A DNA stretch of 64,000 bases from Holophagales bacterium (GCA_031390755.1 JANMTS010000105.1:64007-128006); one strand, 5' to 3'; positions 7,537 through 43,440 are shown, numbered from the stretch's first letter. Notes: generated from the letters alone by a model not told the origin. A program made the numbers and translations.

Positions 7537-9219
<1,683 letters not shown>

Positions 9220-27428: not shown

Positions 27429-27455
27429 AGTGGTTGGTCGGTCCCGCCCGGGAGG

Positions 27456-27976
27456 GAAGCCTCCGTCGGGATGACGGATGCTTCCGGCACGGCGCCGGAC
27501 CGAGAAGTCGGCCGCCGGAAGCATCCGCCGTGAACACGGACGTTTCCGGCGTACGACTGAAGCTTCCGGCGCGACGCCGGACCGGTAAGTCAGTCGACGG
27601 GAGCTTCCACCGTGAACACGGACGCATCCGGCGTGACGACTGAAGCTTCCGGCGCGGCGCGGAACCGGGAAGTCGGTCGCCGGAAGCATCCGCCTTGAAC
27701 ACGGACGCTTCCGGCGTACGACTGAAGCTTCTGGCGCGACGCCGGACCTGTAAGTCAGCCGACGGAAGCTTCCGGCGTGAACACGGACGCATACGGCATG
27801 GCGACCGAAGCTTCCGGCGCGGCGTCGGATCGGGAAGTCGGCTGGCGGACGAGTCCGGCACGACTACGGAAGCTGCCGCCATGACGGCGGACGCATCGGG
27901 CAAGACGACGGAAGCTTCCGGAGTGAGGACGGACGCGTCCGGCACGGCGCCGGATCGGGGGAAAGTGCCTTTCCCC
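27456..27976. repeat. tandem array 1 of 41-42-nt palindromic units (alternating A/B types, ~165-nt higher-order repeat) ending in the GGGGAAAG-tgc-CTTTCCCC hairpin
   Basis: GAAGC(T/A)TCC anchors at 27456, 27518, 27559, 27601, 27642, 27683, 27724, 27765, 27807, 27869 and 27911. Block 27518-27682 is repeated at 27683-27848. Confidence 0.9.
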
Positions 27977-28044
27977 GGAGCCGCGGGGCGGAAGGAAGAG
28001 CGCTACAATTGTGCCTCTTCCACCGTCCCTGCGAACGGAGCCCC

Positions 28045-28155
28045 ATGCCTCGAGCCAAGAAGACTTCCGTTCAGTACCTCATCCTCAGCCTGATCGCGTT
28101 GCCGGTCGTGATGTTCATCGCGTTCATCGCGTACTACCTTCTCAAGGGTCTTTGA
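28045..28155 (+). CDS. possible 36-aa single-TM small protein
   Basis: Hand translation gives MPRAKKTSVQYLILSLIALPVVMFIAFIAYYLLKGL*. GGAG lies 5 nt upstream, and the ORF ends 6 nt before the next gene. Below the ORF-track length cut-off. Confidence 0.4.
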   Translation: MPRAKKTSVQYLILSLIALPVVMFIAFIAYYLLKGL

Positions 28156-28161
28156 GCCGCG

Positions 28162-30468
28162 ATGAACGTACGCCGAGCTTCCGCCACCGCCACTATCGCC
28201 GGCATCACCGTCGTCGCCCTGCTCGCCTTCGCCGGCTTCGGTCAGGCTCAGCCGACCCTCTCGGAGCGCCAGCTCGACAACCTCGTCGCCTACACGCGGC
28301 TGCTCTCGCTCGTCCGTTTCTTCCATCCGTCGGACGCGGTGGCAGCGGCGGACTGGAGCAAGGTGGCGGTGGCGGGGGTTTCGCGGGTCCGGGATGCGGC
28401 GGACCCGGCGGAGCTTGCCTCGCGTCTGGAAGAGGTCTTCAGGCCTCTCGCTCCGACGTTGCGGGTCCGGCCTCGGGGGGAACGGCCGGAGACGCCTCCA
28501 GAGCTTCGGCCTCCCGCTTCTGATTCGCGCATCGTGGCCTGGCGGCACTTCGGCGGCGACTTCGGGGCTGATCGCAAGGTCTTCACCAGCGAGCGGATCG
28601 ACGACCAGACTCCGCCCGGCTTTGGCACGATGGCCCAGGCCGTGCTGCCCGGGCCGCTCAAGGGCAAGAGGATCCGGCTCCGCGCCTGGGTCAAGGCGGA
28701 AATGATGGGCGACGGTCGCGTTCAGCTCGGCCTGCGGGTCGATCGGGCCGGCGGCCAGGTCGGATTCTTCGACAACATGGCGGACCGTCCGCTGCGCACC
28801 ACTCCCTGGAAGCTGGTCGAGATCGAAGGCGACGTGGCTCCGGACGCCGAGAGGATCCTCGTCATGGTGGTGGTGACGGGCGGCGGCATGGTAAGGCTCG
28901 ACGAGGTCTCCCTCGCGGCGACCGACGGCAGGGGGCGGCAGGTTCTCCTCAATCCCGGCTTCGACGACGGCCAGCCCGGGGCTCCGCCGCCCGGCTGGCT
29001 CTTTCCCTACGAGTCGATCCGCGCCGGGTACGCGCTGACCCTTCGACGGGTGGACCAGTGCCGGGCCGGTGCCTGCCACGGAGCGTCCGCAGACTACATC
29101 GCCATGAGCGCTCCGCTGGTGTCGGTCTGCCGGACGGGCAGTTGCGCCGAGATCAGCAGCACCTCGATCGCCACTCCCACCTTCGTCAGGCCTGACCAGG
29201 TCAGGCAGGAGGATCTGGGCGGCGGCGTGACGGCCTGGCTGCCAGTCGCTCTCTACGCCGACCGCCAGGGGACGCTGCCTCGGTCTCCGTCCCCGGCGTT
29301 TCCGGGAATCGACGTGGCCGTCGACACCGCGGACACGCGCATGGCGGCGGCGGCGCTTGCCTGGGGCATCCTTCAGAATCTGCATCCCGAGCTGAAGAGG
29401 GAGGATCCGGCCTGGCTCCAGGCCTTGCGGTCCGTGCTGACCGCGGCGGCGGTCTCGGACCCGGAGGAGTTTTCCCGCATCGCCCGCACGCTGCTGGTGC
29501 CGCTCCACGACTCCCGGGCGTCCTTCTTCCGTCGAGACAATTCCGCGCGGCCCCTGGCGCTTCCTCTGACCTGGGAGTGGCTCGAAGGGCAGCTCGTCGT
29601 CACCGGTGTCGCGCAGGACGTGGCGGGGGGCGTGAAAGACATCCGGGTCGGGGACGTCGTCGAAGCGCTGGACGGCAAGTCCGCCGAGGAGGCCCTCGCG
29701 GCGGTGGAGGCTCGGACGTCCGCGGGCACGCCGGAGGGGCGGCGGTGGATGGCCCTGCAGGAGACGCTTTGGGGTCCGGCGGACTCGCGGGTGGCTCTTC
29801 GCCTCAAGACCGGAGCGGAGGTCGTCCTCGCGCGGACCGTGGCTCCGGGCGCGCGGCCCGCGGGCACGCCGCTGCCGAAGGTCTCGGAGCCCCGACCGGG
29901 CGTCGTCTATGTGGATCTCTCCCGGGTCGGCGACGAGGAGTTGGAGTCCCTGTCGCCGCGGCTGACGGCAGCCAAGGGGCTGATCTTCGACCTGAGAGGC
30001 GGAACCGAAGTCTCGACCGTGCTGCTGTCTCACCTGATCGATCACACGGCGGCCAGCTCAAACTGGCAGGTGCCGGTGGTGATGGAACCGGATTTTCGCG
30101 AGGTCAAGTGGCTGACCACGGTCTGGACCATCGAGCCGAAGGCGCCGCGCTACAAGGGAAAGGTCGCATTCCTGACGGACGGCCGCGCTGACGGATACGC
30201 CGAGACCCTGCTCGGTATGATCGAGGCCTACCGGCTGGGCGAGCGGGTGGGTGCCCGTTCGGGAGGCAGCAACGGCAGCTTCAACTGGAGCGACCTGCCT
30301 GGAGGCTGGAGGCTGATGTGGAGCGGCCAGCGCGTGCTCAAGCACGACGAATCGCCGCTGCAAGGCGTGGGCGTGGCGCCCACCCATCCGGCGGCCCGCA
30401 CCCTTCACGGCGTGGCGGCGGGCCGGGACGAGATCGTGGAGCGCGCGGTGGCGGTCGTGGGCGGCTGA
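28162..30468 (+). CDS. S41 (C-terminal processing/tricorn-core) peptidase-like protein with PDZ-like region; catalytic motifs appear degenerate
   Basis: ORF track, 768 aa with a signal peptide. GLIFDLRGG and VAFLTDGRADGYAETLLGMIE align by eye with the S41 DLRxNxGG and SASASE motifs. Confidence 0.6.
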   Translation: MNVRRASATATIAGITVVALLAFAGFGQAQPTLSERQLDNLVAYTRLLSLVRFFHPSDAVAAADWSKVAVAGVSRVRDAADPAELASRLEEVFRPLAPTLRVRPRGERPETPPELRPPASDSRIVAWRHFGGDFGADRKVFTSERIDDQTPPGFGTMAQAVLPGPLKGKRIRLRAWVKAEMMGDGRVQLGLRVDRAGGQVGFFDNMADRPLRTTPWKLVEIEGDVAPDAERILVMVVVTGGGMVRLDEVSLAATDGRGRQVLLNPGFDDGQPGAPPPGWLFPYESIRAGYALTLRRVDQCRAGACHGASADYIAMSAPLVSVCRTGSCAEISSTSIATPTFVRPDQVRQEDLGGGVTAWLPVALYADRQGTLPRSPSPAFPGIDVAVDTADTRMAAAALAWGILQNLHPELKREDPAWLQALRSVLTAAAVSDPEEFSRIARTLLVPLHDSRASFFRRDNSARPLALPLTWEWLEGQLVVTGVAQDVAGGVKDIRVGDVVEALDGKSAEEALAAVEARTSAGTPEGRRWMALQETLWGPADSRVALRLKTGAEVVLARTVAPGARPAGTPLPKVSEPRPGVVYVDLSRVGDEELESLSPRLTAAKGLIFDLRGGTEVSTVLLSHLIDHTAASSNWQVPVVMEPDFREVKWLTTVWTIEPKAPRYKGKVAFLTDGRADGYAETLLGMIEAYRLGERVGARSGGSNGSFNWSDLPGGWRLMWSGQRVLKHDESPLQGVGVAPTHPAARTLHGVAAGRDEIVERAVAVVGG

Positions 30469-30480
30469 GGCTCCGCAGTC

Positions 30481-30888
30481 TCAAGTCCGCGCCGCGGCCC
30501 GCCGCCCATCGATCCACTCGCGGGCCGCGCGCTCGTGGTCGAAGAACTCGGTATCGAACCGCACATCCTTGCGGAACAGCTTCATGCCGGTGAACACGAG
30601 CTTGGCCATGACCTTGGAAGAGAGCCGCGCGCGGCAGACGGCGACGCCCCGGACGGGCATCCGGGTCAGCGTCTCCGACGTGACCTTGCGGCCGGCCGGC
30701 GTGCCGCTCCCGAACCCGGTCATGTCGACGAGCATGTAGATGACGTCCCGGCCGCGGGCCATCTCGGCATGAACCATCGCGAGCGCCTCACTCTCCTCCA
30801 GGGACACATCCCCCTTCAGGCGCAGTCCGATCAGGTCGGGCTCTTCAAACCAGGTGGCATGGGAACCGACCGGCTGAATCTCGGGCAT
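30481..30888 (-). CDS. hypothetical protein (STAS/SpoIIAA-like?)
   Basis: ORF 30481..30957 trimmed to ATG 30888-30886, preceded by AAGGAGGAGG. 135 aa. Confidence 0.55.
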   Translation of the reverse strand: MPEIQPVGSHATWFEEPDLIGLRLKGDVSLEESEALAMVHAEMARGRDVIYMLVDMTGFGSGTPAGRKVTSETLTRMPVRGVAVCRARLSSKVMAKLVFTGMKLFRKDVRFDTEFFDHERAAREWIDGRRAAART

Positions 30889-30953
30889 CCCCTCCTCCTT
30901 CAGGCGACGTTGATCGCAGGATGCCACTACGATAGGGATAGCCGGACCGGTTT

Positions 30954-30992
30954 TCAACCCCGCCGTTGACAGTGCTCAACCCCGCCGTTGAC
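30954..30992 (+). promoter_or_regulatory. two tandem copies of the palindromic 17-mer TCAACCCCGCCGTTGAC (22-nt spacing) in the lysine-operon promoter region; embedded -35-like TTGACA/TTGACG
   Basis: Copies at 30954-30970 and 30976-30992. Each is TCAAC-N6-GTTGA. TTGACG (30988-30993), 17 nt, then TACGCT (31011-31016), with the ATG at 31026 and no Shine-Dalgarno sequence. Confidence 0.45.
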
Positions 30993-31025
30993 GGCTCGCC
31001 GGGGCGCGGCTACGCTCCTCCTCCC

Positions 31026-32072
31026 ATGGATCTCCTTGCGCTGACGCGCGCGCTGATCGACATCGAGTCGGTGACGGGCAACGAGCGGGCCGTCGGAGAG
31101 TTTCTCTTCGACTACCTCTCCGCCCTGGCGTCCCGGACCGGGGGCCGGGTGGAGCGCATGACGGTGGACCGGGAGCGGTTCAACCTCTTCGCCTTCTGGG
31201 GCTCTCCCGAGGTCGTGCTTTCGACCCACATGGACACCGTGCCGCCGTTCTTCCCCTCGTCGGAGGATGAGGAGCACGTCCATGGCCGCGGGGCCTGCGA
31301 CGCGAAGGGGATTCTCGCGGCGATGATCAAGGCCGTCGAGGCGCTGCTCGACGAGGGGCGGCACGGATTCGGGCTGCTGATCGTGGTCGGCGAGGAGACC
31401 GACAGCCTCGGCGCCCAGGTGGCGAACCGGCAGCCGCGGGGGGCGCGCTTCCTGATCAACGGCGAGCCCACCGAGAACCGGCTGGCTCTCGGCTCCAAGG
31501 GCGCCCTCTATCTGAAGATCGAGGCGCGGGGCCGAATGGCTCACTCCGCCTATCCGGAGCTGGGGGAGTCCGCCACCGACCGGCTGCTCGAGGCGCTCGC
31601 CCGGCTCCGGACCGTGCCGCTTCCCACCGATCCGGTTCTCGGGGAGACGACGATCAACGTGGGCACGCTCTCCGGCGGCCGGGCCGCCAACGTGGTGGCG
31701 GACGAGGCGCGGGCCGAGGTCATGATCCGAACGGTCGGCGAGACGGCCGAGCTTCGGGAGCGGCTGCACGCGGCGGTGACCTCGGTTGCCGGCGTTTCCG
31801 TGGCCGAGGAGCGCGAGAGCCGCGCCGTCCATCTTGGCTCGCTGCCCGGGTTCGACACCACGGTGGTCAAGTACACCACCGACATTCCGCGCCTCGGCGC
31901 CTGGGGCGAGCCGTTCCTGCTCGGCCCGGGAAGCATTCATGTGGCCCACACCTCCACCGAGCGGGTGCCCCGGAAAGAGCTCGAACAAGCGGTCCAGCTG
32001 TACGTAGAGATGGTGAAGGCGCTTACAAACCTAGAGATTCGACGGCAGGAAGGCAGCCATGAAGAAGATTGA
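31026..32072 (+). CDS. M20-family metallopeptidase, DapE/ArgE-like (probable succinyl-diaminopimelate desuccinylase by context)
   Basis: ORF 30966..32072 trimmed to ATG 31026 ([20 protein letters not shown]). [16 protein letters not shown] and GEETDS motifs. First gene of the asd-lysC-dapBAD cluster. Confidence 0.75.
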
Positions 32073-33108
32073 AGTCGGCATCCTGGGCGCCACCGGCACG
32101 GTGGGGCAGCGGTTCATCCAGATCCTGGAGAACCATCCCTGGTTCGAGGTGACCTGGCTCTCGGCCAGCGACCGCAGCGCCGGCAAGCGCTATGGCGACG
32201 CCACGTCGTGGCAGCTCGAAGGGGCGCCGCCGTCCCGCATTGCCGGCCTGACGGTCGAGGAGACGGTGCCCGGGCGCGGGCCGAAGCTGGTGTTCTCGTC
32301 CATGGCCTCGAGCCAGGCCGCGGAGATCGAGCGCGCCTTTGCGGCCGAGGGGCACATCGTGGTCTCCAACTCCAGCCACTACCGGATGGCGGAGGACGTC
32401 CCGCTGCTCATCCCCGAGGTCAATCCCGGCCATCTGGGGCTCCTCGCGGGCCAGCGGCGCGAGCGCGGCTGGAGCGGCGCCATCATCACGAATCCGAACT
32501 GCGCGGCGGTCGGACTGACCATGGCGCTCGCCCCGCTCAAGCCGTTCGGGCTCATGCACGCGATGGTGACGACCTTCCAGGCGGTCTCCGGCGCCGGCTA
32601 TCCGGGCGTGCCGTCCCTGGACGCGCTCGGCAACGTCATTCCTTATATAGGGGGCGAGGAGGAGAAGGTCGAGTCCGAGCCGCAGAAGATGCTCGGCGAC
32701 CTGGCCGGGGATCGCATCGAGCCGATCCCGCTGGTGATCAGCGCGAGCTGCAACCGGGTGCCGGCGATCGACGGCCACATGGTCGCCATGAGCCTGGAGT
32801 TCGAGCGCCGGCCGGAGCGCGAGGAGCTGATCGAGGCCCTCACCGGTTTCCGCGGCCTGCCCCAGGAGCGCGAGCTGCCGACCGCGCCGCGCCGGCCGAT
32901 CCACGTGATGGAGGCGCCGGACCGGCCGCAGACGCGCAAGGACGTGAACCTCGAAGGCGGCATGGCCACGGCCGTGGGGCGCATCCGCGAGTGCTCGGTC
33001 TTCCACTGGAAGCTCGTGGCGCTCTGCCACAACGTGATGCGCGGTGCGGCCGGCGCGGCCGTGCTCAATGCGGAATTGATGAAGAGCGAGGGACTGCTCG
33101 ACTCATGA
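32059..33108 (+). CDS. asd: aspartate-semialdehyde dehydrogenase
   Basis: ORF track, 349 aa. [14 protein letters not shown], active-site NPNCAAV, and QAVSGAGY. Confidence 0.93.
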
Positions 33109-33125
33109 GAGGAAGATCCGTCTTT

Positions 33126-33183
33126 CTCCCTCTCCCCCGGCACGGGGGAGAGGGCCGGGGAGAGGGGGGATGGGATCAATGGT
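33126..33183. repeat. family 1 hairpin element, copy C
   Basis: CCCTCTCCCCCG-gca-CGGGGGAGAGGG hairpin (33128-33154) followed by CCGGGGAGAGGGGGGATGGGATCAATGG, between asd and lysC. Confidence 0.8.
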
Positions 33184-34504
33184 GGTCATGAAGTTTGGCG
33201 GCAGCTCGGTCGGCTCTGCCGAGTCGATCGCTCGCGTTGCGGGCATCGTCCTCAGCCAGCGGCACCGCGACCCGGTGATCGTAGTCTCCGCCATGGGGAA
33301 GACGACCAGCAAGCTGCTCGCGGCGGCCGATGCCGCGGCGGCTGGTCTGCCGAGCGCCTGGAAGCTGGTCCAGGATCTCCAGACCTACCATCGGGATGAG
33401 GCCAACGGCTGTATTCCGGACGACGCCCTCCCGTGTATCGACTCCACCCTGGACAGCTACTTCGGCATGCTGCGGATCATCCTCAAACGGATCGCTTCCG
33501 AGGGAACGGTCACTCCCCGCGACGCCGACCTCGTCGCCAGCTTCGGCGAGCTGCTCGCCAGCGCCATCGTCTCCCAGGCTCTGGATGAGACCGAGGGCCT
33601 CGACTCCGCCTGGGTCGACTGCCGCGAGGTCATGATCACGGACGATCAGTTCACCCGCGCCCGGCCGATCTACGAGCTGACCGAGCCGCGGCTGCGCGAG
33701 ACGCTGATCCCGATCCTCCAGCAAGGCTGCGTGCCCGTGCTCGGCGGCTACGTGGGCTCGACGGCCGACGGCGTCACCACCACGCTCGGCTTCGAAGGCT
33801 CGGACTTTTCCGCCGCCATTGTCGGGGCCGCGCTCGGCGCCGAGGAGGTCCAGATCTGGACCGACGTGGACGGCATGCTGACCGCCGACCCGCGGATCGT
33901 GGCGGACGCGCGGCCCATCCGCTCGCTCTCCTTCGCGGAGGCCCTGGAGCTGTCCAGCTCGGGCCTCAAGAAACCGCACTGGGGGACGCTCGGACCGGCG
34001 AGCCGCGCGGACGTGCCCATCCGCATCCTCAACTCCTGGCACCAGGGCATCCGGGGGACGGTCATCGGTCGGAGGGATGGCGAGACGGGCATCAAGTCCA
34101 TCGCCTGGAAGCCCGGCGCCCACCGGCTCACGGTGCGCGGGAGCGGCATCCTGCGCGCGGTGTTCGACGCGGTCGACCGCTTCCGCCCGGAGCTGACCGT
34201 TCTGCTCGTCGAGGACGCCGCGGTCGAGCTGTCTCTCGACCACGCGGACCGGCTGGAAGAGGTTCGCGCTGCGCTCGCGGACGCCGGAGAGGTCGAGGTT
34301 CAGGAGGGACGCGCCGTCGTGACGCTGGTCTCCGACGACCTCGCCGTCAGCTCCGAGCTGGTGGGGACGGTGTTCGCGGCCGCCCGCGACTGGGAGCCGC
34401 GGCTGCTCGTCGAGGGCGTGGCCGCGCCGTGCATCCGCTGCCTGGTCGAGGAAACGACGGCGGAGCAGGTCGTGGCCGAGCTGCACAGGAGGTTGTTCGC
34501 ATGA
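33179..34504 (+). CDS. lysC: aspartate kinase
   Basis: ORF 33170..34504. The first ATG lies inside the repeat element, so I prefer MVVMKFGGSSVGS at 33179. KFGGSS and VVSAMGKTT motifs; C-terminal ACT region. Confidence 0.92.
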   Translation: MVVMKFGGSSVGSAESIARVAGIVLSQRHRDPVIVVSAMGKTTSKLLAAADAAAAGLPSAWKLVQDLQTYHRDEANGCIPDDALPCIDSTLDSYFGMLRIILKRIASEGTVTPRDADLVASFGELLASAIVSQALDETEGLDSAWVDCREVMITDDQFTRARPIYELTEPRLRETLIPILQQGCVPVLGGYVGSTADGVTTTLGFEGSDFSAAIVGAALGAEEVQIWTDVDGMLTADPRIVADARPIRSLSFAEALELSSSGLKKPHWGTLGPASRADVPIRILNSWHQGIRGTVIGRRDGETGIKSIAWKPGAHRLTVRGSGILRAVFDAVDRFRPELTVLLVEDAAVELSLDHADRLEEVRAALADAGEVEVQEGRAVVTLVSDDLAVSSELVGTVFAAARDWEPRLLVEGVAAPCIRCLVEETTAEQVVAELHRRLFA

Positions 34505-35211: not shown

Positions 35212-35222
35212 AAGGCCTTCTC

Positions 35223-36173: not shown

Positions 36174-37005
36174 GCTCCGGGAGCGGATCGAAGCCCTTTT
36201 TGCCAATCCCCCCGCGGCTCCCGGCCAGGAGCACCTCGACCTTTTCCAGCGGTTCAAGGACGCCCTGAACCGGGGAGACATCCGCGCCGCCGAGCCCGAT
36301 CCGGACTCGGCCGTGGGCTGGAAGGTGAACCCCTGGGTCAAGCAGGGCATCCTCCTCGGCTTCCGCCTGGGCAAGATCGTGGATCTCTCGGTGGGAACGC
36401 TCCCGTTCTTCGACAAGGACACCTACCCGCTCCGTCCCCTGACGCCGGACGCGGGAGTCCGCATCGTGCCCGGAGGCTCGTCCATCCGCGACGGCGTCTA
36501 CCTGGGCAAGGGCGTGACCTGCATGCCGCCGATGTACATCAACGCCGGAGCCTGGGTGGACGACGGCACCCTGGTCGACTCCCACGCCCTGGTGGGAAGC
36601 TGCGCCCAGGTCGGCAAGCGAGTCCACCTCTCCGCCGCCGCCCAGCTCGGCGGCGTGCTGGAGCCGGTCGGAGCCCTCCCGGTCATCGTGGAGGACGACG
36701 TGCTGATCGGCGGCAACTGCGGCGTCTACGAAGGCACCATCGTGAAGCGCCGAGCCGTCCTCGGCTCCGGAGTCATCCTCACCCGCTCGACCCCCGTCTA
36801 CGACCTCGTGAAAGAGACCATCCACCGCGCCGAGGAAGGCCAGCCGCTGGTGATCCCCGAGGAAGCCGTCGTGGTCCCCGGCAGCCGGAACGTCACCCGC
36901 GGCAAGGGCAAGGAGTGGGGCGTCTCGCTCTACACGCCGGTCATCGTGAAGTACCGGGATGAGTCCACGGACGAGCGGGCGATGCTGGAGGACTGGCTGC
37001 GGTAG
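36166..37005 (+). CDS. dapD: 2,3,4,5-tetrahydropyridine-2,6-dicarboxylate N-succinyltransferase
   Basis: ORF track, 279 aa. Hexapeptide-repeat core and C-terminal ...KYRDESTDERAMLEDWLR, typical of DapD. Confidence 0.88.
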   Translation: MTELRERIEALFANPPAAPGQEHLDLFQRFKDALNRGDIRAAEPDPDSAVGWKVNPWVKQGILLGFRLGKIVDLSVGTLPFFDKDTYPLRPLTPDAGVRIVPGGSSIRDGVYLGKGVTCMPPMYINAGAWVDDGTLVDSHALVGSCAQVGKRVHLSAAAQLGGVLEPVGALPVIVEDDVLIGGNCGVYEGTIVKRRAVLGSGVILTRSTPVYDLVKETIHRAEEGQPLVIPEEAVVVPGSRNVTRGKGKEWGVSLYTPVIVKYRDESTDERAMLEDWLR

Positions 37006-37186
37006 GAAGGCTCGCCAGTCGGGGGCTGACCTGTCCAGGGTGGGCGCGCTTCCTATACACGTCACTCCCTTGTACGCGAACAAGAACAGGCCGCTTGTTG
37101 CATTCCTCGCTGCTGGAAGCTACATTACCGTAGAAATACGGAAAGGGGGCGTGCATCGACATGCGTGCCTCCAAGCGAGGTTCTTG

Positions 37187-38644
37187 ATGGCCACTGCTCA
37201 GAAGCGAAAGCCCGAGCCGCAAGGGCTGCGCGACTTCCTTGACCGACAGGAGAAGGAGCGCCTTGTCGACATCCTGTTCAACCATGCCCAGGTGGACGAC
37301 CGCCTCCTCCGGAAGTTGACCCTCGAGCAGGGGAAGAGGGGAGGCCGGCAATCCGAGCTTGCCGCGGTGCGCCGCAACCTCGACGCCGCTTTCGACCCGG
37401 GGGATGTCTACTCCTACCGCGAGGTCAGTGGCTTCGCCGACAGGCTCGATGAGGCCGTGAACGACCTGGACGACCTGCTGAAGCAGGGAAAGGCCGAGGA
37501 GGTCATCGATCTGACAGAGCACGCCATCGGCTTGGCGGAGGAGGCCCTGGGGCAGGTGGACGACTCGGACGGAGAGGTGTACGGGGTGTTGGAGCGCCTC
37601 GGGGAGCTTCACCTCAAGGCGTGCAGGAAGGCGAAGCCCGACCCCGAGGATCTGGCGCGCCGACTCTTTGCCTTCGAGCTTCGGACAGATTGGGATTCGT
37701 TCAATGGAGCCGTGGACACCTACGCCGGCATCCTTGGAAAGAAGGGCTTGGTGGTCTACCGCGAGCTCGCTGAGGCCGAGTGGAAGAGGGTTCCGGCCCG
37801 CAAAGCAGGCGACTCTCCGGACTTCGGCGGCCCGCAGTGGCGTCTCGGTCAGATCCTGGAGCGGTTGGCCAGGTCTGCCGGCGACGTGGAAGCTCTGGTA
37901 GCGGTCAAGTCGCACGATCTCTCGCAGCCCTGGTTCTATCTCCAGATCGCCGAGATCTACAAGGACGCTGGAAAGAGAGACCTGGCCATCGAGTGGGCGG
38001 AGAAGGGCATCGGCGCATTTCCCAAGCGGACCGACCCCCGTCTGCGAAGCTTTCTTGCCGGCGAGTACGCGGCACACCGCAGTCACGGAAAGGCGGTCGA
38101 CCTCCTGTGGGCGAACTTCACCGATGCGCCCGGAATCGAGGCCTACAAGGAGCTCAAGAAACTGGCGGAGCGAGCCAGGGCATGGCCGGAATGGCGGGAG
38201 AAAGCCCTCGCCCTCCTCCGAGAGCGCGCGAAGAACGGGACATCCAGACCATCGGCTCCCCGATGGCCGCCGCTCAACCTTGGCCGGGGCCCGGCTTCAC
38301 AGTTGGTCGAGATCCTCCTCTGGGAGAAAAAGGTGGAGGATGCCTGGACATCGGCCCGGCAACTCGGTTGCTCGGAAGAGCTCTGGCTGCAGATGGCCAG
38401 GCTCCGGGAGCTGTCGCACCCGGAGGACTCTCTCGCCGTCTACCAGCGTCAAGCCGAGTCGGCCCTCCAGCAGCCGAGCCCGCGCGGATATGAGGCGGCG
38501 GCGGCTCGCCTGAAGCAGGTCCGGGACGTGATGACGCGTCTGGGGAAGACCCGCGAGCTCGCCGCCTATCTTGCCTCCGTGCGCCTCGCCAACAAGCGGA
38601 AGCGCAATTTCCTGAAGCTTCTGGATGCTGCCAGGCTGGGGTGA
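37187..38644 (+). CDS. hypothetical alpha-helical repeat protein (DUF6880-like?)
   Basis: ORF 36959..38644 trimmed to ATG 37187. 485 aa, helical, with lower GC and different codon usage than the flanks. The family name is only a recollection. Confidence 0.6.
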   Translation: MATAQKRKPEPQGLRDFLDRQEKERLVDILFNHAQVDDRLLRKLTLEQGKRGGRQSELAAVRRNLDAAFDPGDVYSYREVSGFADRLDEAVNDLDDLLKQGKAEEVIDLTEHAIGLAEEALGQVDDSDGEVYGVLERLGELHLKACRKAKPDPEDLARRLFAFELRTDWDSFNGAVDTYAGILGKKGLVVYRELAEAEWKRVPARKAGDSPDFGGPQWRLGQILERLARSAGDVEALVAVKSHDLSQPWFYLQIAEIYKDAGKRDLAIEWAEKGIGAFPKRTDPRLRSFLAGEYAAHRSHGKAVDLLWANFTDAPGIEAYKELKKLAERARAWPEWREKALALLRERAKNGTSRPSAPRWPPLNLGRGPASQLVEILLWEKKVEDAWTSARQLGCSEELWLQMARLRELSHPEDSLAVYQRQAESALQQPSPRGYEAAAARLKQVRDVMTRLGKTRELAAYLASVRLANKRKRNFLKLLDAARLG

Positions 38645-38707
38645 GGCCCGAGGGTCCGGTCAACCTTTCTCCCTCGAAGCCGTAGTCAGTCCAGGAGGTG
38701 TTGACCG

Positions 38708-38908
38708 ATGTGGACCTTTCTGGCCTGGCTCGCGCTCTTCCTTCTCTGTTGGCCACTCGCGCTGCCGGCGCTGGTTCTCTACCCCTTCGTGTGGCTTCTC
38801 TCCCTCCCGTTCCGGCTGGTGGGCATCACGCTGGACGCGGTCTTCGAGCTGCTCAAGGCGGTTCTCTTCCTGCCGTCCCGGCTTCTCGGGGCTCGGAGAG
38901 CATCATGA
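38708..38908 (+). CDS. small hydrophobic membrane protein
   Basis: ORF track, 66 aa, two TM helices. ATGA overlap with the next gene. Confidence 0.45.
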   Translation: MWTFLAWLALFLLCWPLALPALVLYPFVWLLSLPFRLVGITLDAVFELLKAVLFLPSRLLGARRAS

Positions 38909-39342
38909 AGAAGAGCGCATCCCAGGAAGGAAAGTCTCCGTCGCAGTTGATCGACGGGCGGATCGAGGAGCTTGGCGACTGGCGGGGCGAAATGCTCTCC
39001 CGGCTCCGCGCCTTGATCCATCAGGCCGCCCCCGAGGTGGTCGAGGAGTGGAAGTGGGGCGGTCCGGTTTGGTCTCACGACGGATTGATCTGCACCGGCG
39101 AGACGTACAAGAAGGCCGTGAAGCTGACCTTTGCCAAGGGAGCCTCGGTCGAGGATCCCTCAGGACTCTTCAACTCCAGCCTCGAAGGCAACACCCGGCG
39201 CGCCATCGACTTCCCCGAGGGCGCGGCGATCGACGAGAAGGCCTTCAAGGAGCTAATTCGCGCGGCTGTGAAGCTGAACAATCCCGCGGCTGAACTCGGA
39301 GGAGAGGAATCGTCTCCCTGTTTCTCTAAGCGAACCCTCTAA
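38905..39342 (+). CDS. DUF1801 (YdhG-like) domain protein
   Basis: Frame of ORF 38698..39342 trimmed to ATG 38905. ...LGDWRGEMLSRLRALI...EEWKWGGPVWSHDGLIC...KLTFAKGA is the DUF1801 pattern. Confidence 0.65.
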   Translation: MKKSASQEGKSPSQLIDGRIEELGDWRGEMLSRLRALIHQAAPEVVEEWKWGGPVWSHDGLICTGETYKKAVKLTFAKGASVEDPSGLFNSSLEGNTRRAIDFPEGAAIDEKAFKELIRAAVKLNNPAAELGGEESSPCFSKRTL

Positions 39343-39643
39343 CGCTCGCGTCCGGCAAATCGTTGGCCGAACCAAGTCCCACCTGATCTCTCTACGTGGC
39401 GACGACTTCCCCGTGGCGGGAATACCCGCAGTGGCACGATCTCATGGTCATCTGGCATTCAGCGCTTTGCGTTGGCCGCTTGCTCTCTGAAACGGCCATC
39501 GCGGACGCCTTCTGGGATACGTGTATCTGCCCGGATCGAGTCTGCCCCGACCTCACGCCACCCGATTAAGCCTAGAATGGGGTCTTTTACGGCAGAGCGA
39601 AGTTACTCGGTTGCTACGGGTCTGTTTCCCCAATGGAGGATCC

Positions 39644-42490
39644 ATGCTGGAGCCGGGCTTTACGTTTGTCCCCAAGGCAGTGGGAGAGTTGAGGAGTCCT
39701 AGAAAGGAAAGGATCGTCCGGGCTACTTTCTCGCCGGGAGGTCGCCTCTTGGCCGCGACCACGGATGCGGGCCAGATTCTGGTTTGGCGATGGGATGGTG
39801 AGGGTTATTCCCTCTCCGCCGAGAGTAAGACCATCGACGGTGGTAGCGTCAAGCCCTTATGCCTGGGTTGGTCGTCCAGGGCAAGCCTCCTCATCACTGG
39901 CTGGAGCGATGGTCTCCTGCGCGTCTACGACAGCAAGACCCTGGCGCTCGTCCGCCAATCTGAGGACGGCTCCGGCGGCGCCGTGCTCTGCTTGGCGGTT
40001 CATCCTCATAGCGCAGTCTTCGTTTCGGCCGCCGAGGGCGAGGGTGGACTCCGCGTTTGGAACGCAGCCAGGAAGAGGCTCCAGCCCATCCAAGAGGTCT
40101 CCGGCCCCGAGCAACAGACTTGGGGACTCTCCTGGCATCTCAGGGGAGGGCTCCTGGCTTCCTGCGGAGCCGACGAGAGGGTCCGGATCTGGCAGTATGA
40201 GGATAGATCGGACAAGCTTACTGAGAGCCAGCACATCGTCTCTCAGGCAAGGCAGGTCGTCTGGTCTCCCGATGCCGACCCTCTCCTCGCACACATCGAG
40301 CCCGCGGGGTGTCTCAAGCTGTGGCGGACCCGGCAGCGGGGGGCGGTCACCCTTCCTCACTCCGGAGAGGTCACTTCTGTCGTCTTCTCTCCCGACGGGT
40401 CGGTTTGCATTTCGAAGTCTTCCACGGGCCAGCTCCTCCTCTGGAGGTCGCCCTCCGGCGAGTTCCTTGAGTATATCGAGGAGAGAAAGATCACCTCCAT
40501 AGAGCCAGGCGGGCCACCTTTTCCAGCTGAGTTGGCGGTCCGCTCGGTCCAGGCACGGCCAGATTGGAACACTGAGGAACGCTCTGTCGCGCCTTCCGTC
40601 ACCCTTGCCTTCGATCTAGTCAACGCCGACCCGAGCGACCTCTGCCTCCGCATTTGGCGGCTTCGTCGAGAGGAGCGGGAGAGCCAGCCGCCGCCGCCAC
40701 GAGTTCGGGACTACGTTGTCACCTACCCTCAGCCGGGGACGCAGACAGTGGTCCAGGAGTCGATCCGTTTCTCGGGCCTCCAAGACCAAAAGGCCAGGGA
40801 GGATCAACTCGGATTCAAACCCTATGTCGAGGCCGTTGCCGACTTCCTCACCGACGCCGGAACGCGCCCGCCGCTCACCTTTTCGATCGAAGGGGAGTGG
40901 GGAGCTGGAAAGTCCTCCTTCATGGAGCAGGTTAGACAGCGAATCGAAGATAGGGAAGCCGGCAACCGGAAGGGGCCTCGGAGCCGGTTCCAGCGCCTCT
41001 GGCGAGGAAACCAGAGTCACATCCTCTCCTTCAATCTCTGGAGGCACGACAAAGAGGAATCTGTCTGGGCAGCCTTCGTCCTGGAACTCCTGCAGCAGCT
41101 CCGCCGGCAGTGCGGCCTCCCTCGCCGCCTTCTCGGCTGGGCCAATCTTTTCGTCTGGCGCCTTCAATGGACGAATGCTCTCTTCGGTTTTCTCCGGCTC
41201 GCTGCCTGGTTGATCATCATCGTGCTAGGCGCGATTGTCGTCTCGAACCTCCCGACTCAAACGCTGAGGCCCACCCAGACGCCGACTGCCGTGGACGATT
41301 CCACCAAAATACAGGAAGTCATCGATTCAATCGGGGATGCCCTCGACTCGCCCGAGAGCCTAGCGGTGCTCGTCCTCGTGGTTACGCTCCTGCTGAACGC
41401 CAAGCAACTCCTCGGGAACCCTTTGGATCTAGAGATCGGAAAGTACCTACGGTCCTCGGACTGGGAGAACCGAACCGCTTTTGTTGAACGCTTTCACAAG
41501 GATTTCGACCAGATCGTCCAGGCCTATGCTGGAAAAAAGAGGGTCTACGTCTTCGTCGACGACCTCGACCGGTGCGATGTCCCGCGAGCGGCCGACCTCA
41601 TGCAGGCGATCAACCTACTGATCTCCGAGAACCCGAACCTCCTCTTTATCTTAGGAATGGACCGGCAGAAGGTGGCGGCGGGCCTCGCGGTGAAATTCGC
41701 GAAGATCCTTCCCTATCTGCGGACGGAGGCGGTCCCCCAGGGCTACGGCCCGGCTGAGGGCCTGGTCTACGGATACGAGTTCATCGAGAAGTTCATTCAA
41801 ATTCCCTTCCAGCTCCCCCGCCCCTCCCGCGCGGACCTCACGAGATTCCTTCGTTCCCTCAGTCCTTCTGCAGACACCGGTGCCCCGACGGACCTGATCG
41901 ATCCCGGCCAAGAAGAACCGGAGTGGTCCGAAGATCTCGACCAGCCGACGCTTCCTCCTATGCCCCACCCTGCTCAGGATCCAACCGGACCTGGTTCCTC
42001 CATGCACTCCCTTCCGGCCGACAGGACCGTCCCGGCCCAACTGCCGACTCGGGAGGAATTGAGTCTCGCCATCGGCTTCGACTCAGGAATCGTTAGGGAG
42101 ACCGTCCTTCTCGTGGCCCCGGCTCTCGGTAACAACCCACGCCGGATCAAGCAATTCATCAATTCATTCCGGCTTCGTGCCTTCCTCGCCTATCATACGG
42201 GCCTGCTTGCCGGGCGGGAGAGCCATCCAGACAAGGTCACCTTCTACCAGCTTGGCAAGCTGGTAGTGTTGAGCCTGCGCTGGCCCCTCCTCCTAGCCGA
42301 GTTGCACGAGCGCCCCAACCTCCTTCGCAAGCTGGAAGCGGCTGCCACCGATCCGACCTATCTCCCTGGTGATTCGGAAAAGCGTTGGACGAATCAACCG
42401 CGACTCATGGCCCTGCTCCGCTCCCGGAGCTCCTCGCCCCACAAGAACCTGGCCTCATTGGACGTCAAACTCTTGCTGCGGATCTCTTGA
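39644..42490 (+). CDS. WD40 beta-propeller fused to a KAP-family P-loop NTPase (membrane-inserted)
   Basis: ORF 39521..42490 trimmed to ATG 39644 (GGAGGA RBS). About 7 WD-like blades (…GQILVWRWD, DGLLRVYD, GGLRVWN, DERVRIWQ, GCLKLWR, GQLLLWR, CLRIWRL). Walker A GEWGAGKSSF (~40893-40919). Two TM helices are inserted before Walker B VYVFVDDLDRC (~41543-41575). Confidence 0.85.
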   Translation: MLEPGFTFVPKAVGELRSPRKERIVRATFSPGGRLLAATTDAGQILVWRWDGEGYSLSAESKTIDGGSVKPLCLGWSSRASLLITGWSDGLLRVYDSKTLALVRQSEDGSGGAVLCLAVHPHSAVFVSAAEGEGGLRVWNAARKRLQPIQEVSGPEQQTWGLSWHLRGGLLASCGADERVRIWQYEDRSDKLTESQHIVSQARQVVWSPDADPLLAHIEPAGCLKLWRTRQRGAVTLPHSGEVTSVVFSPDGSVCISKSSTGQLLLWRSPSGEFLEYIEERKITSIEPGGPPFPAELAVRSVQARPDWNTEERSVAPSVTLAFDLVNADPSDLCLRIWRLRREERESQPPPPRVRDYVVTYPQPGTQTVVQESIRFSGLQDQKAREDQLGFKPYVEAVADFLTDAGTRPPLTFSIEGEWGAGKSSFMEQVRQRIEDREAGNRKGPRSRFQRLWRGNQSHILSFNLWRHDKEESVWAAFVLELLQQLRRQCGLPRRLLGWANLFVWRLQWTNALFGFLRLAAWLIIIVLGAIVVSNLPTQTLRPTQTPTAVDDSTKIQEVIDSIGDALDSPESLAVLVLVVTLLLNAKQLLGNPLDLEIGKYLRSSDWENRTAFVERFHKDFDQIVQAYAGKKRVYVFVDDLDRCDVPRAADLMQAINLLISENPNLLFILGMDRQKVAAGLAVKFAKILPYLRTEAVPQGYGPAEGLVYGYEFIEKFIQIPFQLPRPSRADLTRFLRSLSPSADTGAPTDLIDPGQEEPEWSEDLDQPTLPPMPHPAQDPTGPGSSMHSLPADRTVPAQLPTREELSLAIGFDSGIVRETVLLVAPALGNNPRRIKQFINSFRLRAFLAYHTGLLAGRESHPDKVTFYQLGKLVVLSLRWPLLLAELHERPNLLRKLEAAATDPTYLPGDSEKRWTNQPRLMALLRSRSSSPHKNLASLDVKLLLRIS

Positions 42491-42567
42491 TCGGCCTGAT
42501 GTCGTCCCCAGGAGAAGAACGTGGAATTGAGACGACTTGACTATCGCGGCATCGACTCGCTCGGCGT

Positions 42568-42852
42568 CTACAGGCCGCCGCATTCCGCTGCCCGCTCGAA
42601 GCTGACCAGTCTCCGCACGAGAGCGTTGTATCGGGAATGAGCCGAGTCTGTTCCCGAGCTGGCGAGGAGCTCGTAGAGGCGGTGCTCCGCAGTCGGGATG
42701 ACCTGGTCGGGCACGGGGAGGCCGATCCGTCGGAGTCGGGGAGCCCCGATCGACACCAGCAGGGCGGGGATCGACTCGATGCCACGAACGAGATCGGCGA
42801 GCCCTTCCTCCACCAGATCCCCTCCCGGCAATGCGTGCAGATTCAGAGCCAT
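42568..42852 (-). CDS. hypothetical 94-aa protein
   Basis: ORF 42568..43212 trimmed to ATG 42852-42850 (MALNLHALPGG...). The upstream part of the ORF is the repeat array. Confidence 0.45.
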   Translation of the reverse strand: MALNLHALPGGDLVEEGLADLVRGIESIPALLVSIGAPRLRRIGLPVPDQVIPTAEHRLYELLASSGTDSAHSRYNALVRRLVSFERAAECGGL

Positions 42853-42928
42853 TCCGAGAGTATAGGGTCCGCGAACTGCCCAGGGGCCGACCACGTCCAG
42901 CGGGAGTCTGTCCGCGACGTGCAACCGA

Positions 42929-43440
42929 GGGAAAGGCGCTTTCCCCGCATCCGGCGCCGCGCCGGACGCATCCGCCGTGATGCCGGAAGCTTCCGCCGTC
43001 ATGACGGACGCGTACGGGACCACGACGGAAGCGTCAGCCGTCATGCCGGACGCGTACGGGACCGCGCCGGAAGCTTCAGCCGTCACGACGGACGCGTACG
43101 GGACCGCGACGGTAGCTTCCGCCGTCATGACGGACGCGTACGGGACCGCGCCGGAAGCTTCAGCCGTCAAGCCGGACGCGTACGGGACCACGACGGAAGC
43201 TTCCGCCGTCACGACGGATGCAACGGGGCCGCGACGGAAGCTTCAGCCGTCACGACGGACGCGTACGGGACCACGACGGAAGCTTCAGCCGTCACGACGG
43301 ATGCAACGGGACCGCGACGGGAGCTTCCGCCGTCATGCCGGACGCGTACGGGACCACGCCGGAAGCTTCCGTCGTCATGCCGGATGCGTACGGGACCACG
43401 GCGGAAGCGACCGGCGCCGTGCCGGAGATCGCTGGAAAGG
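42929..43440. repeat. tandem array 2: ten 41/42-nt units GGAAGCTTC(C/A)GCCGTCA(T/C)GACGGACGCGTACGGGACC(A/G)CGAC plus degenerate end units; terminal hairpin GGGAAAG-gcg-CTTTCCC at the left end
   Basis: Unit starts at 42985, 43027, 43069, 43111, 43153, 43195, 43236, 43278, 43319, 43361 and 43403. Two units are 41 nt and the rest 42 nt. Confidence 0.92.

What the first reader, a model, noticed from the sequence alone, without database searches (positions are those of the whole stretch)
27456..43440. The two arrays share a 47-nt terminal module in mirror orientation and bracket a 15-kb segment
The right end of array 1 on the + strand reads CGGACGCGTCCGGCACGGCGCCGGATCGGGGGAAAGTGCCTTTCCCC. The left end of array 2, read on the - strand, is CGGATGCGTCCGGCGCGGCGCCGGATGCGGGGAAAGCGCCTTTCCCT. 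By hand alignment these differ at about 5 of 47 positions.

In both cases the hairpin end points toward the enclosed segment, at similar distances (69 and 77 nt) upstream of a small gene read away from the array.

The enclosed 15 kb holds the S41-like gene, the whole lysine operon and the lower-GC WD40-KAP insert.

Possible readings:
1. Independent copies of a promoter-proximal or insulator-type element.
2. Inverted repeats able to mediate inversion of the 15-kb segment.
3. Remnants of the ends of a large composite element.

Because the lysine genes are core metabolism, I favour (1) or (2).
Basis: partly seen in the sequence, partly recalled or inferred. Interest (0 to 1): 0.6.

Follow-up and report, generated by a model that had tools for sequence, protein, structure and literature searches.

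The report
Shared end-caps of dispersed palindrome arrays
The two mirrored 47-base modules are real, but they are the standard end-cap of a repeat family found at about 30 places in this soil acidobacterium, not the ends of a 15-kb unit. The undescribed part is the family itself, which is strictly spaced every 21 bases and sits at variable genome junctions.

Summary
The modules lie at 27930-27976 (+) and 42928-42974 (-) and match at 41 of 47 positions.

The module is not special to this pair:
- 19 arrays of the same family (30 loci, 340 CGGAnGCnTCCG cores) end in the same cap.
- Mean pairwise identity among caps is 38/47, and each window cap has closer relatives on other contigs.
- The cap is one unit of a sister 42-nt hairpin-repeat family.

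The enclosed 15 kb is not a unit. It consists of:
- a 9-kb block (small gene, S41-like gene, lysine operon to dapD), syntenic in seven congeners, which have other neighbours at both ends;
- a 5.9-kb low-GC island.

Both arrays sit at synteny breakpoints.

Cap orientation and distance to genes vary, so the cap is not a promoter element. The longest exact inverted match between the arrays is 20 nt, so this pair is not a favoured inversion substrate.

Best reading: these are fast-turnover, non-coding, 21-bp-phased palindrome arrays resembling BIME, BOX or minisatellite elements. They probably serve as double-stranded docking platforms for a dimeric protein, and they accumulate at flexible junctions.

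The parts
26748..27428 (+). Gene upstream of array 1 (weak acetoacetate-decarboxylase-like match). It is not the neighbour of the lysine block in relatives.
   Evidence: Pfam ADC E = 0.003, below cut-off. No orthologue lies next to the S41 block in seven congeners.
27455..27929 (.). Array 1: 17 CGGAnGCnTCCG cores in 21-nt phase, organised as an 82/165-nt higher-order repeat. Every 82-nt super-unit contains a degenerate cap-like unit (GCCGGACCGGGAAGTCGGC).
   Evidence: TRF periods 21, 41, 82 and 165. Core cluster at C6:91460-91947. Sequence.
27930..27976 (+). Its conserved part is GCGCCGGATCGGG-GGAAAG-TGC-CTTTCC-CC, with an 8-bp stem and 3-nt loop.
   Evidence: As single-stranded DNA it folds at -15.7 kcal/mol, z = -3.2.
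28045..28155 (+). 36-aa predicted membrane peptide, first gene of the conserved block. A TACAAT -10-like hexamer lies at 28004-28009.
   Evidence: tblastn hits upstream of the S41-like gene in G009, G010 and G004 (52-55% identity). Sequence.
28162..37005 (+). Conserved core block: S41-like gene (28162-30468), SpoIIAA-like gene (30481-30888, minus strand) and the lysine/DAP operon from the M20 dapE-like gene (30972) to dapD (36166-37005).
   Evidence: Pfam. Same order and orientation in G003-G006 and G008-G010.
37006..42927 (.). Low-GC island (60-65% GC): DUF6880 gene (37040-38644), DUF1801 gene (38947-39342), WD40-KAP NTPase gene (39521-42490) and a 94-aa gene (42568-42852, minus strand).
   Evidence: Composition. 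Pfam. No part recurs next to dapD or gene D in relatives. The only other copy in the genome is the 94-aa paralogue in C152.
42928..42974 (-). Cap 2, the same module read on the minus strand, facing the low-GC island.
   Evidence: It folds at -17.4 kcal/mol, z = -3.1.
42975..43426 (.). Array 2: about 10 units of 42 nt (two 21-nt units each, CGGAAGCTTCCG and CGGACGCGTACG cores), 20 cores in total.
   Evidence: TRF period 42, 10.2 copies, 87% matches. Core cluster at C6:106969-107419.
43539..46565 (+). Gene D: a 1008-aa protein whose N-terminus looks like a signal peptide (by eye, no predictor run), conserved across the order. Its upstream neighbour differs among congeners.
   Evidence: 31 of 31 genomes have it. 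Upstream regions differ.

Best explanation
They do not define a 15-kb element.

The family (shown):
- About 30 loci of non-coding tandem arrays.
- The 21-nt units carry a 12-bp palindrome, CGGAnGCnTCCG.
- 19 arrays end on one side in a conserved module, GACGCCGGATCGGG-GGAAAG-N3-CTTTCC-CTCG.
- This module is a single unit of a sister 42-nt hairpin-repeat family, so the arrays are mosaics.

How they behave (shown):
- They grow by local tandem duplication of blocks that are multiples of 21 nt.
- Their repertoire and copy number change fast between species.
- An array of this family occurs in frame inside a gene in another genus.
- They lie preferentially beside low-GC acquired DNA and, at this locus, at synteny breakpoints.

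How they most likely work (inferred):
- They are double-stranded docking platforms. Identical half-sites repeat every two helical turns, which places a dimeric DNA-binding protein on one face of the helix.
- The cap is one site of a second specificity that marks one end of the platform.
- The mirrored arrangement around the lysine operon is one of two equally likely orientations for two neighbouring family members.
For: Family-wide cap:
- 19 capped arrays.
- Cap 1 against cap 2 is 41/47, against a mean of 37.9/47. Both have closer relatives elsewhere.
- Cap 1 (GGCGCGGCGCCGGATCGGGGGAAAGTGCCTTTCCCCGGAGCC) aligns by eye with the 42-nt unit GGCGTCTTGCCGGATGGAGGGAAAGGAGCTTTCCCCGGAGTC.

Phasing:
- Spacings between successive cores are 21 nt (231 times), 41-42 nt (60) and 62-63 nt (11).
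- 144 non-coding arrays of many sequence families share the 20-21-nt period.

Double-strand recognition rather than hairpin:
- The two variable core positions are complementary in 29% of cores, against 35% expected from their base frequencies.
- The 5' arm of the first cap hairpin varies freely while the 3' arm is fixed.

Turnover:
- The cap is absent from 80 other genomes of the order.
- Core dimers: 254 in this genome, against 0-36 in congeners and 80 in genus g7.
- Upstream of the 36-aa gene, G009 has GGGGA-N5-TCCCC at spacings of 62, 41 and 62 nt. G004 has CCCCCGGGG at spacings of 20-22 or 63 nt.

Not a unit:
- The block 28045-37005 is syntenic in seven congeners but flanked there by orthologues of C184 and C16 genes.
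- The upstream neighbour of gene D varies.

Flexible junctions:
- 10 of 32 family loci have an adjacent 2-kb bin in the lowest 5% of GC.
- For all arrays the figure is 17.5% against 9.9% for control gaps, Mann-Whitney p = 2e-6.

Coding tolerance:
- A 96-aa (PPEASxP)n insert encoded by this array type lies in the G016 orthologue of gene D.

Candidate partner:
- A G016 array of this type lies about 55 nt upstream of a 125-aa protein.
- Its 19 homologues in this genome are within 1.5 kb of arrays in 4-5 cases, against 6% expected.
Against: - No protein has been shown to bind these arrays.
- The two arrays of this finding have no member of the 125-aa family next to them, and no flanking protein family recurs across the 30 loci.
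- A constant 21-nt period could be inherited from the duplication unit without selection.
- The patchy distribution, copy-number swings, contig-end positions (22 arrays) and the in-frame copy inside a gene fit a purely selfish element equally well.
- Both arrays coincide with synteny breaks in a 185-contig assembly that looks like a metagenome bin. A chimeric join at a repeat cannot be excluded without reads.
Confidence: 0.6

Rival explanations
1. Purely selfish REP/BIME- or MITE-like repeats. The palindromes are substrates of a transposase (for example a RAYT-type Y1 enzyme) or spread by recombination and replication slippage, and have no host function. The cap is the element's terminal recognition structure.
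For: - 30 loci with species-specific abundance.
- Random intergenic context with a slight excess in convergent gaps.
- Co-location with IS91-derived repeats, IS1-like and Rpn-like genes and another hairpin repeat family.
- An in-frame copy inside a gene in G016.
- 12 Y1_Tnp matches in the genome, one of them 426 nt from a family array on C58.
Against: - There is no compensatory pairing at the variable core positions.
- The three 150-aa IS200/RAYT-size Y1 genes have no tandem arrays within 3 kb (single flanking palindromes were not checked). Only 2 of 12 Y1 loci lie near any array.
- The strict two-turn phasing shared by many unrelated sequence families is not explained by a transposase substrate.
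- Different palindromes occupy the same intergenic site in three species.
Confidence: 0.3
2. Promoter-proximal or insulator element. The cap is positioned at a set distance upstream of divergently read genes and shields or tunes their promoters.
For: - Both window caps lie 68-75 nt upstream of small genes read away from them.
- A TACAAT hexamer lies between cap 1 and its gene.
- 8 caps face gene starts.
- Arrays border acquired low-GC DNA more often than chance, which is where an insulator would be useful.
Against: - Distances range from 69 to 409 nt, and 4 caps face gene stops at 18-101 nt.
- Divergent gaps are under-represented among arrays (20% against 30%).
- No sigma-70-type promoter was scored.
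Confidence: 0.2
3. Assembly artefact. Contig C6 is a chimera joined through family repeats at array 1, array 2 or both, so the 15-kb bracket does not exist in the cell.
For: - The assembly has 185 contigs, and 22 phased arrays lie within 300 nt of contig ends.
- Both arrays fall exactly where synteny with congeners ends.
- The gene that follows dapD in relatives sits at the very start of contig C16.
Against: - The two arrays have distinct internal architectures (82/165-nt against 42-nt periods). Each shares at most 34 nt of exact sequence with arrays on other contigs, and the two share only 20 nt with each other.
- The neighbours of dapD and of gene D also differ among the congeners themselves, so rearrangement here is normal.
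- C184, which carries the ancestral upstream neighbour, is continuous across the expected junction.
Confidence: 0.1
4. Inverted repeats that mediate inversion of the 15-kb segment.
For: - There is inverted similarity of 130 nt at 77% and 47 nt at 87%.
- The arrays sit at rearrangement-prone junctions.
Against: - The longest exact inverted match is 20 nt. From general knowledge, this is below the roughly 23-27 bp usually needed for efficient RecA-dependent exchange in E. coli.
- Longer matches exist with arrays on other contigs.
- No recombinase or invertase gene was found among the genes scanned in 25.3-46.6 kb.
- Inverting a core biosynthetic operon has no evident regulatory logic.
Confidence: 0.07
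5. Remnant ends of a large composite mobile element that carries the enclosed 15 kb.
For: - Mirror-image caps face inward.
- The block has different neighbours in this genome than in congeners.
- A low-GC island lies inside the bracket.
Against: - The lysine block is vertically inherited and syntenic in seven congeners that have different neighbours on both sides.
- The caps are not each other's closest relatives.
- No transposase or integrase is enclosed.
- The island occupies only one end.
- The insert sequence does not recur elsewhere in the genome.
Confidence: 0.05

Closest known systems
REP clusters / BIMEs of Escherichia coli and REPINs of Pseudomonas (general knowledge; PMC3733652, PMC3116915)
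   Same: - Short extragenic palindromes in hundreds of copies.
- Clustered into mosaics of more than one unit type.
- Lineage-specific.
- Found in all intergenic contexts, with a lean toward 3' ends.
   Different: - Units here are strictly tandem at 21 nt, with up to about 24 per array.
- The core is a 12-bp perfect-type palindrome without compensatory changes.
- No GTAG-tagged hairpin was seen by eye; the CGTC tag was not assessed.
- No RAYT gene is flanked by these units.
- Many unrelated sequence families share the same period.
BOX elements of Streptococcus pneumoniae (boxA-boxB(n)-boxC; general knowledge)
   Same: - Modular dispersed intergenic element.
- A variable number of tandem internal units plus distinct terminal modules.
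   Different: - Only one end is capped here.
- There is no sequence relation.
- The period is 21 nt rather than 45 nt.
- The arrays are much longer.
MIRU-type dispersed minisatellites of Mycobacterium tuberculosis (general knowledge)
   Same: - Tens of intergenic loci.
- Tandem 40-100-nt units with variable copy number.
   Different: - MIRUs carry small overlapping reading frames linked to the flanking genes and are not palindrome arrays.
- The arrays here are broken by 41-nt units and have no consistent frame.
Plasmid centromere and iteron arrays (R1 parC/ParR, F sopC/SopB, R388 stbS/StbA; general knowledge)
   Same: - Helically phased repeats that load one protein cooperatively on one face of the DNA.
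- An adjacent small gene is seen for some arrays of this kind (G016, and 4-5 of 19 in this genome).
   Different: - These are chromosomal, at about 30 loci per family.
- The two arrays studied here have no adjacent partner gene.
- No NTPase partner is present and binding is unproven.
Rickettsia palindromic elements (general knowledge)
   Same: A palindromic repeat tolerated in frame inside a protein-coding gene (G016 orthologue of gene D).
   Different: - RPEs are single units of about 100-150 nt, not tandem 21-nt arrays.
- In this genome the arrays are intergenic.

Membership tests
REP/BIME (RAYT-associated repetitive extragenic palindromes) | Short (20-40 nt) extragenic imperfect palindromes in many dispersed copies | tested here: met
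   340 cores in 30 clusters. The reversed-pattern control does not cluster. The arrays lie outside confidently called genes.
REP/BIME (RAYT-associated repetitive extragenic palindromes) | Stem maintained by compensatory changes (single-strand hairpin is the functional form) | tested here: not met
   Variable core positions 5 and 8 are complementary in 29% of 178 exact cores, against 35% expected. The 5' arm of the first cap hairpin is not conserved.
REP/BIME (RAYT-associated repetitive extragenic palindromes) | Cognate single-copy Y1 transposase (RAYT) flanked by its REPs, with a GTAG/CGTC tag at the palindrome foot | tested here: inconclusive
   There are 12 Y1_Tnp matches. Three are 150-aa RAYT-size genes without tandem arrays within 3 kb; single flanking REPs were not looked for. 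Eight are a multi-copy 300-aa type. Only C58 and C132 lie near arrays. No GTAG tag was seen by eye. CGTC occurs in the units but is uninformative at 68% GC.
Invertible DNA segment (hin/gin/fim type) | Site-specific recombinase gene within or beside the segment | tested here: not met
   Pfam scans of 16 reading frames between 25.3 and 46.6 kb gave no recombinase, invertase or integrase. The middle genes of the lysine operon, 32059-36173, were not scanned.
Invertible DNA segment (hin/gin/fim type) | Both orientations present in a population | not testable with these tools
Composite transposon / mobile island bounded by inverted terminal repeats | Ends are sister copies, cargo moves as a unit, and a mobility gene is present | tested here: not met
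   The caps have closer relatives elsewhere. The core block is syntenic in seven congeners with other flanks. There is no mobility gene. The insert is unique in the genome.
Centromere- or iteron-type protein-loading array | Repeats phased with the DNA helix | tested here: met
   231 of 340 successive core spacings are exactly 21 nt, and most of the rest are 41-42 or 62-63 nt.
Centromere- or iteron-type protein-loading array | Cognate DNA-binding protein encoded beside the array | tested here: inconclusive
   None lies beside the two window arrays or recurs across the 30 loci. A 125-aa family lies next to an array of this type in G016 and next to 4-5 of its 19 loci in this genome. It has no Pfam domain, and binding is untested.
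Protein-coding repeat | One frame stays open through the whole array with coding-type composition | tested here: not met
   Array 1 has an 82-nt period, not a multiple of 3. Array 2 has 41-nt variant units. The minus-strand frame closes inside the array and scores low.

The most novel reading that the evidence does not exclude
The phased arrays could be loading platforms of a lineage-specific chromatin or boundary system of Thermoanaerobaculia. Paralogous small proteins, with the 125-aa helical, basic-tailed family as candidates, would each polymerise on their own palindrome family. Capped arrays would mark and insulate the junctions between core genes and newly acquired low-GC DNA. In that case the mirrored caps around the lysine operon would be two outward-facing boundaries, shielding a core operon from a neighbouring island and from upstream transcription.
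Probability: 0.12. Interest if true: 0.8.

Novelty: new variant of a known kind. Interest (0 to 1): 0.4.

Why it matters
- It removes a tempting but wrong reading, namely that a core lysine operon sits inside an invertible or mobile 15-kb element.
- It documents features of an apparently undescribed repeat class: a defined polarity and end-cap, mosaic construction from two unit families, strict two-turn phasing without hairpin covariation, replacement of one palindrome by another at the same site in sister species, and enrichment at synteny breaks and acquired islands.
- If a binding protein exists, these arrays would be a new kind of chromosomal organising element in a major soil phylum.
- If no such protein exists, they are a new model of tandem-amplifying selfish DNA, and a practical cause of broken metagenome assemblies.

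Tried and rejected
- **Rfam:** scans of 25-46 kb of the window and of five related loci gave only chance miRNA-type hits on the arrays.
- **Recurrent flanking protein:** none was found for the 30 family loci. For all 144 arrays only small clusters appeared.
- **RAYT link:** Y1 transposases exist but are not array-flanked.
- **Sequence beyond the cap as the true element end:** it proved to be a separate hairpin repeat family of about 60 copies (CCGCCGGCGnGnCGCCGGCGGTCCCAGG) that is merely adjacent in some loci.
- **The 375-nt 'element A' outside four caps as a leader or ncRNA for variable cargo:** it proved to be the region just 3' of an IS91-family transposase gene, that is, an IS-derived repeat.
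- **First gene caller:** it picked antisense shadow frames and was retrained.
- **First translation of the 94-aa gene:** it was one base out of frame and was redone.
- **TRF on the G009 and G004 sites:** it missed the degenerate arrays. Pattern searches showed them.
- **Literature searches:** no description of such arrays in Acidobacteriota was found.

Full report
**Observation**

Array 1 (27455-27976) and array 2 (42928-43426) are real tandem arrays.
- TRF gives periods of 21, 41, 82 and 165 nt for array 1.
- TRF gives 42 nt, 10.2 copies and 87% matches for array 2.

They differ at 6 of 47 positions. The inverted similarity extends to 130 nt at 77%.

Both hairpin ends face inward.
- Cap 1 ends 68 nt before a 36-aa gene (28045-28155).
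- Cap 2 ends 75 nt before a 94-aa gene on the minus strand (42568-42852).

The window is C6:64007-128006 of a 7.65-Mb, 185-contig, 68%-GC genome. The nearest public relatives by dapD are MAGs labelled Thermoanaerobaculia or Acidobacteriota.

**The module is a family-wide cap**

BLAST of the arrays against the genome found about 40 related loci. A search for the core palindrome CGGAnGCnTCCG found 340 cores in 30 clusters.

The hairpin GGAAAG-N3-CTTTCC, preceded by GCCGGATCGGG, closes one end of 19 of these arrays.

- The 19 caps average 37.9/47 identical positions.
- Cap 1 against cap 2 scores 41/47, and 26 of 171 pairs score higher.
- Cap 1 is closer to C113:21581 and C73:416 (43/47).
- Cap 2 is closer to C61:31407, C73:416 and C113:21581 (42/47 each).

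The conserved part is GACGCCGGATCGGGGGAAAGnnnCTTTCCCTCG. The loop and the 5' arm of the upstream hairpin vary.

The cap is almost the same as one unit of a second repeat family, a 42-nt array unit GGCGTCTTGCCGGATGGAGGGAAAGGAGCTTTCCCCGGAGTC found on C4, C9, C56, C107, C157, C166 and C167. A degenerate version recurs inside every 82-nt super-unit of array 1. The arrays are therefore mosaics of at least two unit types.

**Relation to genes**

Cap orientation relative to the next gene is mixed:
- 8 caps face a confidently called gene start at 69-409 nt.
- 4 face a stop codon at 18-101 nt.
- About 5 face gene-poor low-GC DNA.

Across all 144 non-coding arrays with 20-21-nt phase in this genome, the context is 58 tandem, 23 convergent and 20 divergent. 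The baseline for gaps is 1079, 277 and 587.

No sigma-70-type promoter or intrinsic terminator scores in or beside either window array. A TACAAT hexamer lies at 28004-28009. The similar 68-75-nt distances are not a family property.

**The enclosed 15 kb is not a unit**

The block from the 36-aa gene through the S41-like gene, the SpoIIAA-like gene and the lysine operon to dapD (28045-37005) keeps its order in seven congeners.
- In at least four congeners it is flanked upstream by the orthologue of C184:12647-14455.
- In three congeners it is flanked downstream by orthologues of C16:34-2664.
- It is never flanked by this genome's neighbours.

Gene D (43539-46565) is present in 31 of 31 genomes of the order. 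Its upstream neighbour differs even among congeners.

The remaining 5.9 kb (37006-42927) is 60-65% GC and carries DUF6880, DUF1801, a WD40-KAP NTPase and the 94-aa gene. It does not recur in the genome except for a paralogue of the 94-aa gene, which lies in another island on C152.

Both arrays thus sit exactly at synteny breakpoints.

**Recombination potential**

The longest exact inverted match between the two arrays is 20 nt. Array 1 shares 31-34 nt, and array 2 27-32 nt, with arrays on other contigs. The pair is not a privileged substrate.

**Nature of the arrays**

Successive cores are 21 nt apart 231 times, 41-42 nt apart 60 times and 62-63 nt apart 11 times.

The two variable core positions do not covary: 29% are complementary, against 35% expected. 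This argues against a selected hairpin and for recognition of CGGA/TCCG half-sites on duplex DNA. As single strands the caps do fold, at z about -3.

The same 20-21-nt period is used by many unrelated palindrome families in this genome.

**Turnover**

- The full cap pattern is absent from 80 other genomes of the order.
- The bare hairpin occurs 71 times here, 23 times in G004, 13 times in G009 and 0-4 times in other congeners.
- Two cores at 21-nt spacing occur 254 times here, 36 times in G004, 12 in G009, 11 in G011 and 80 in G016.

At the site upstream of the 36-aa gene, sister species carry other palindromes:
- G009 has four GGGGA-N5-TCCCC palindromes at spacings of 62, 41 and 62 nt, with 0.09 expected.
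- G004 has CCCCCGGGG palindromes at spacings of 20-22 or 63 nt.
- G010's contig ends 75 nt upstream of that gene.

G004 has a 42-nt hairpin array just upstream of gene D.

In G016, an array of the CGGAAGCTTCCG type lies in frame inside the orthologue of gene D. It encodes a 96-aa (PPEASxP)n insert that is absent from this genome's protein.

**Association with flexible DNA**

- 10 of 32 family loci have an adjacent 2-kb bin in the lowest 5% of genomic GC, and 17 of 32 in the lowest 10%.
- For all arrays the figures are 17.5% against 9.9% for control gaps (Fisher p = 0.02) and 39% against 22%, with Mann-Whitney p = 2e-6.
- By comparing the cap orientations with the flanking GC, I count about seven loci in which the cap faces the low-GC side, among them cap 2.
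- Flanking genes include IS1-like, Rpn-like, Uma2, toxin-antitoxin and AAA genes.

**Candidate partner protein**

No protein family recurs beside the 30 loci.

A 125-aa helical, basic-tailed family without a Pfam match has 19 loci here. Four or five of them are within 1.5 kb of arrays, against 6% expected. In G016 a member starts about 55 nt after an array of this type. This agrees with earlier notes of this scan, but binding is untested.

**Verdict**

The interpretation as a bracketing pair is not supported. The interesting object is the repeat family itself. No paper describing such arrays was found.

Noticed in passing
L026:1348-1738 (G000:C149:27348-27737); also C175:4880-5244, C94:88407-88782 and 94304-94680, C72:13461-13841: A 375-nt repeat (GGTCTCTTGC...CTTAAACGTT) has 23 matches in this genome and 12 in G009. 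It lies 26-163 nt outside four caps, and downstream of arrays of other families. In G005, G006, G007 and G010, and on C72 of this genome, it is the stretch immediately 3' of an IS91-family (Y2) transposase gene. It is therefore probably an IS91-derived end or miniature element. It has no Rfam match.
   Followed up: partly
L047:1950-2215 (G016:C1:1468951-1469214): In another genus the orthologue of gene D carries an in-frame array of about 12 CGGAAGCTTCCG units. It encodes a 96-aa (PPEASxP)n insert that is absent from this genome's protein.
   Followed up: yes
G000:C21:6341-6709, C168:27498-27875, C18:23634-24011, C107:112471-112716; L048:1125-1502: A 125-aa protein family (MPxxTS...W..LL...HYG.R...L..FG..P + basic tail) has 19 loci and no Pfam domain. 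It is enriched beside phased arrays of several families, which makes it a candidate array-binding protein.
   Followed up: partly
G000, about 60 sites, e.g. C6:129332-129393, C88:44772-44830, C98:17278-17340: A separate dispersed hairpin repeat, CCGCCGGCGnGnCGCCGGCGGTCCCAGG, often occurs as inverted doublets separated by a T-run (REPIN- or terminator-like). It abuts some array caps (C72, C73, C141) and H-family arrays (C4).
   Followed up: partly
G000:C184:10950-11040 and 12585-12670: An 85-nt direct duplication (promoter plus first codons of the gene at 12647) flanks a 1.6-kb insert. By eye the insert holds ATPase-like gene fragments (not scanned).
   Followed up: no
G000:C13:6117-7013 and 7974-8870, C58:2640-3566, C91:20003-20929, C148:58708-59634, C132:4300-5190: A multi-copy family of about 300-aa proteins gives weak Y1_Tnp (IS200-like) matches. 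It is distinct from three 150-aa RAYT-size genes (C84, C148, C32) and a 143-aa IS200-like gene on C172, and is probably an uncharacterised insertion sequence.
   Followed up: no
G000:C152:1-3200: Another array (TTGCGGCTGCGGCAAACGAGG family) is followed, by eye, by a toxin-antitoxin-like pair and a low-GC gene (neither scanned against Pfam), then by the 74%-identical paralogue of the window's 94-aa gene. This paralogue overlaps the start of a downstream partner gene, and that partner is missing in the window.
   Followed up: partly
L027:2567-3171 (G000:C175): Group II intron RNA domains (RF02001 at 134 bits, RF01998, RF00029) lie without an obvious intron-encoded protein, inside the low-GC island next to a capped array.
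   Followed up: no
window 28004-28009: A TACAAT -10-like hexamer lies 36 nt upstream of the 36-aa gene's ATG, between cap 1 and the conserved block.
   Followed up: no
G000:C113:21577-31331: Three capped arrays lie within 10 kb. Two of them bracket a 50%-GC, 2160-aa gene and share 319 nt (83%) plus 75 nt (99%) of sequence outside the cap. This is a clearer 'arrays around an island' case than the one in the window.
   Followed up: partly
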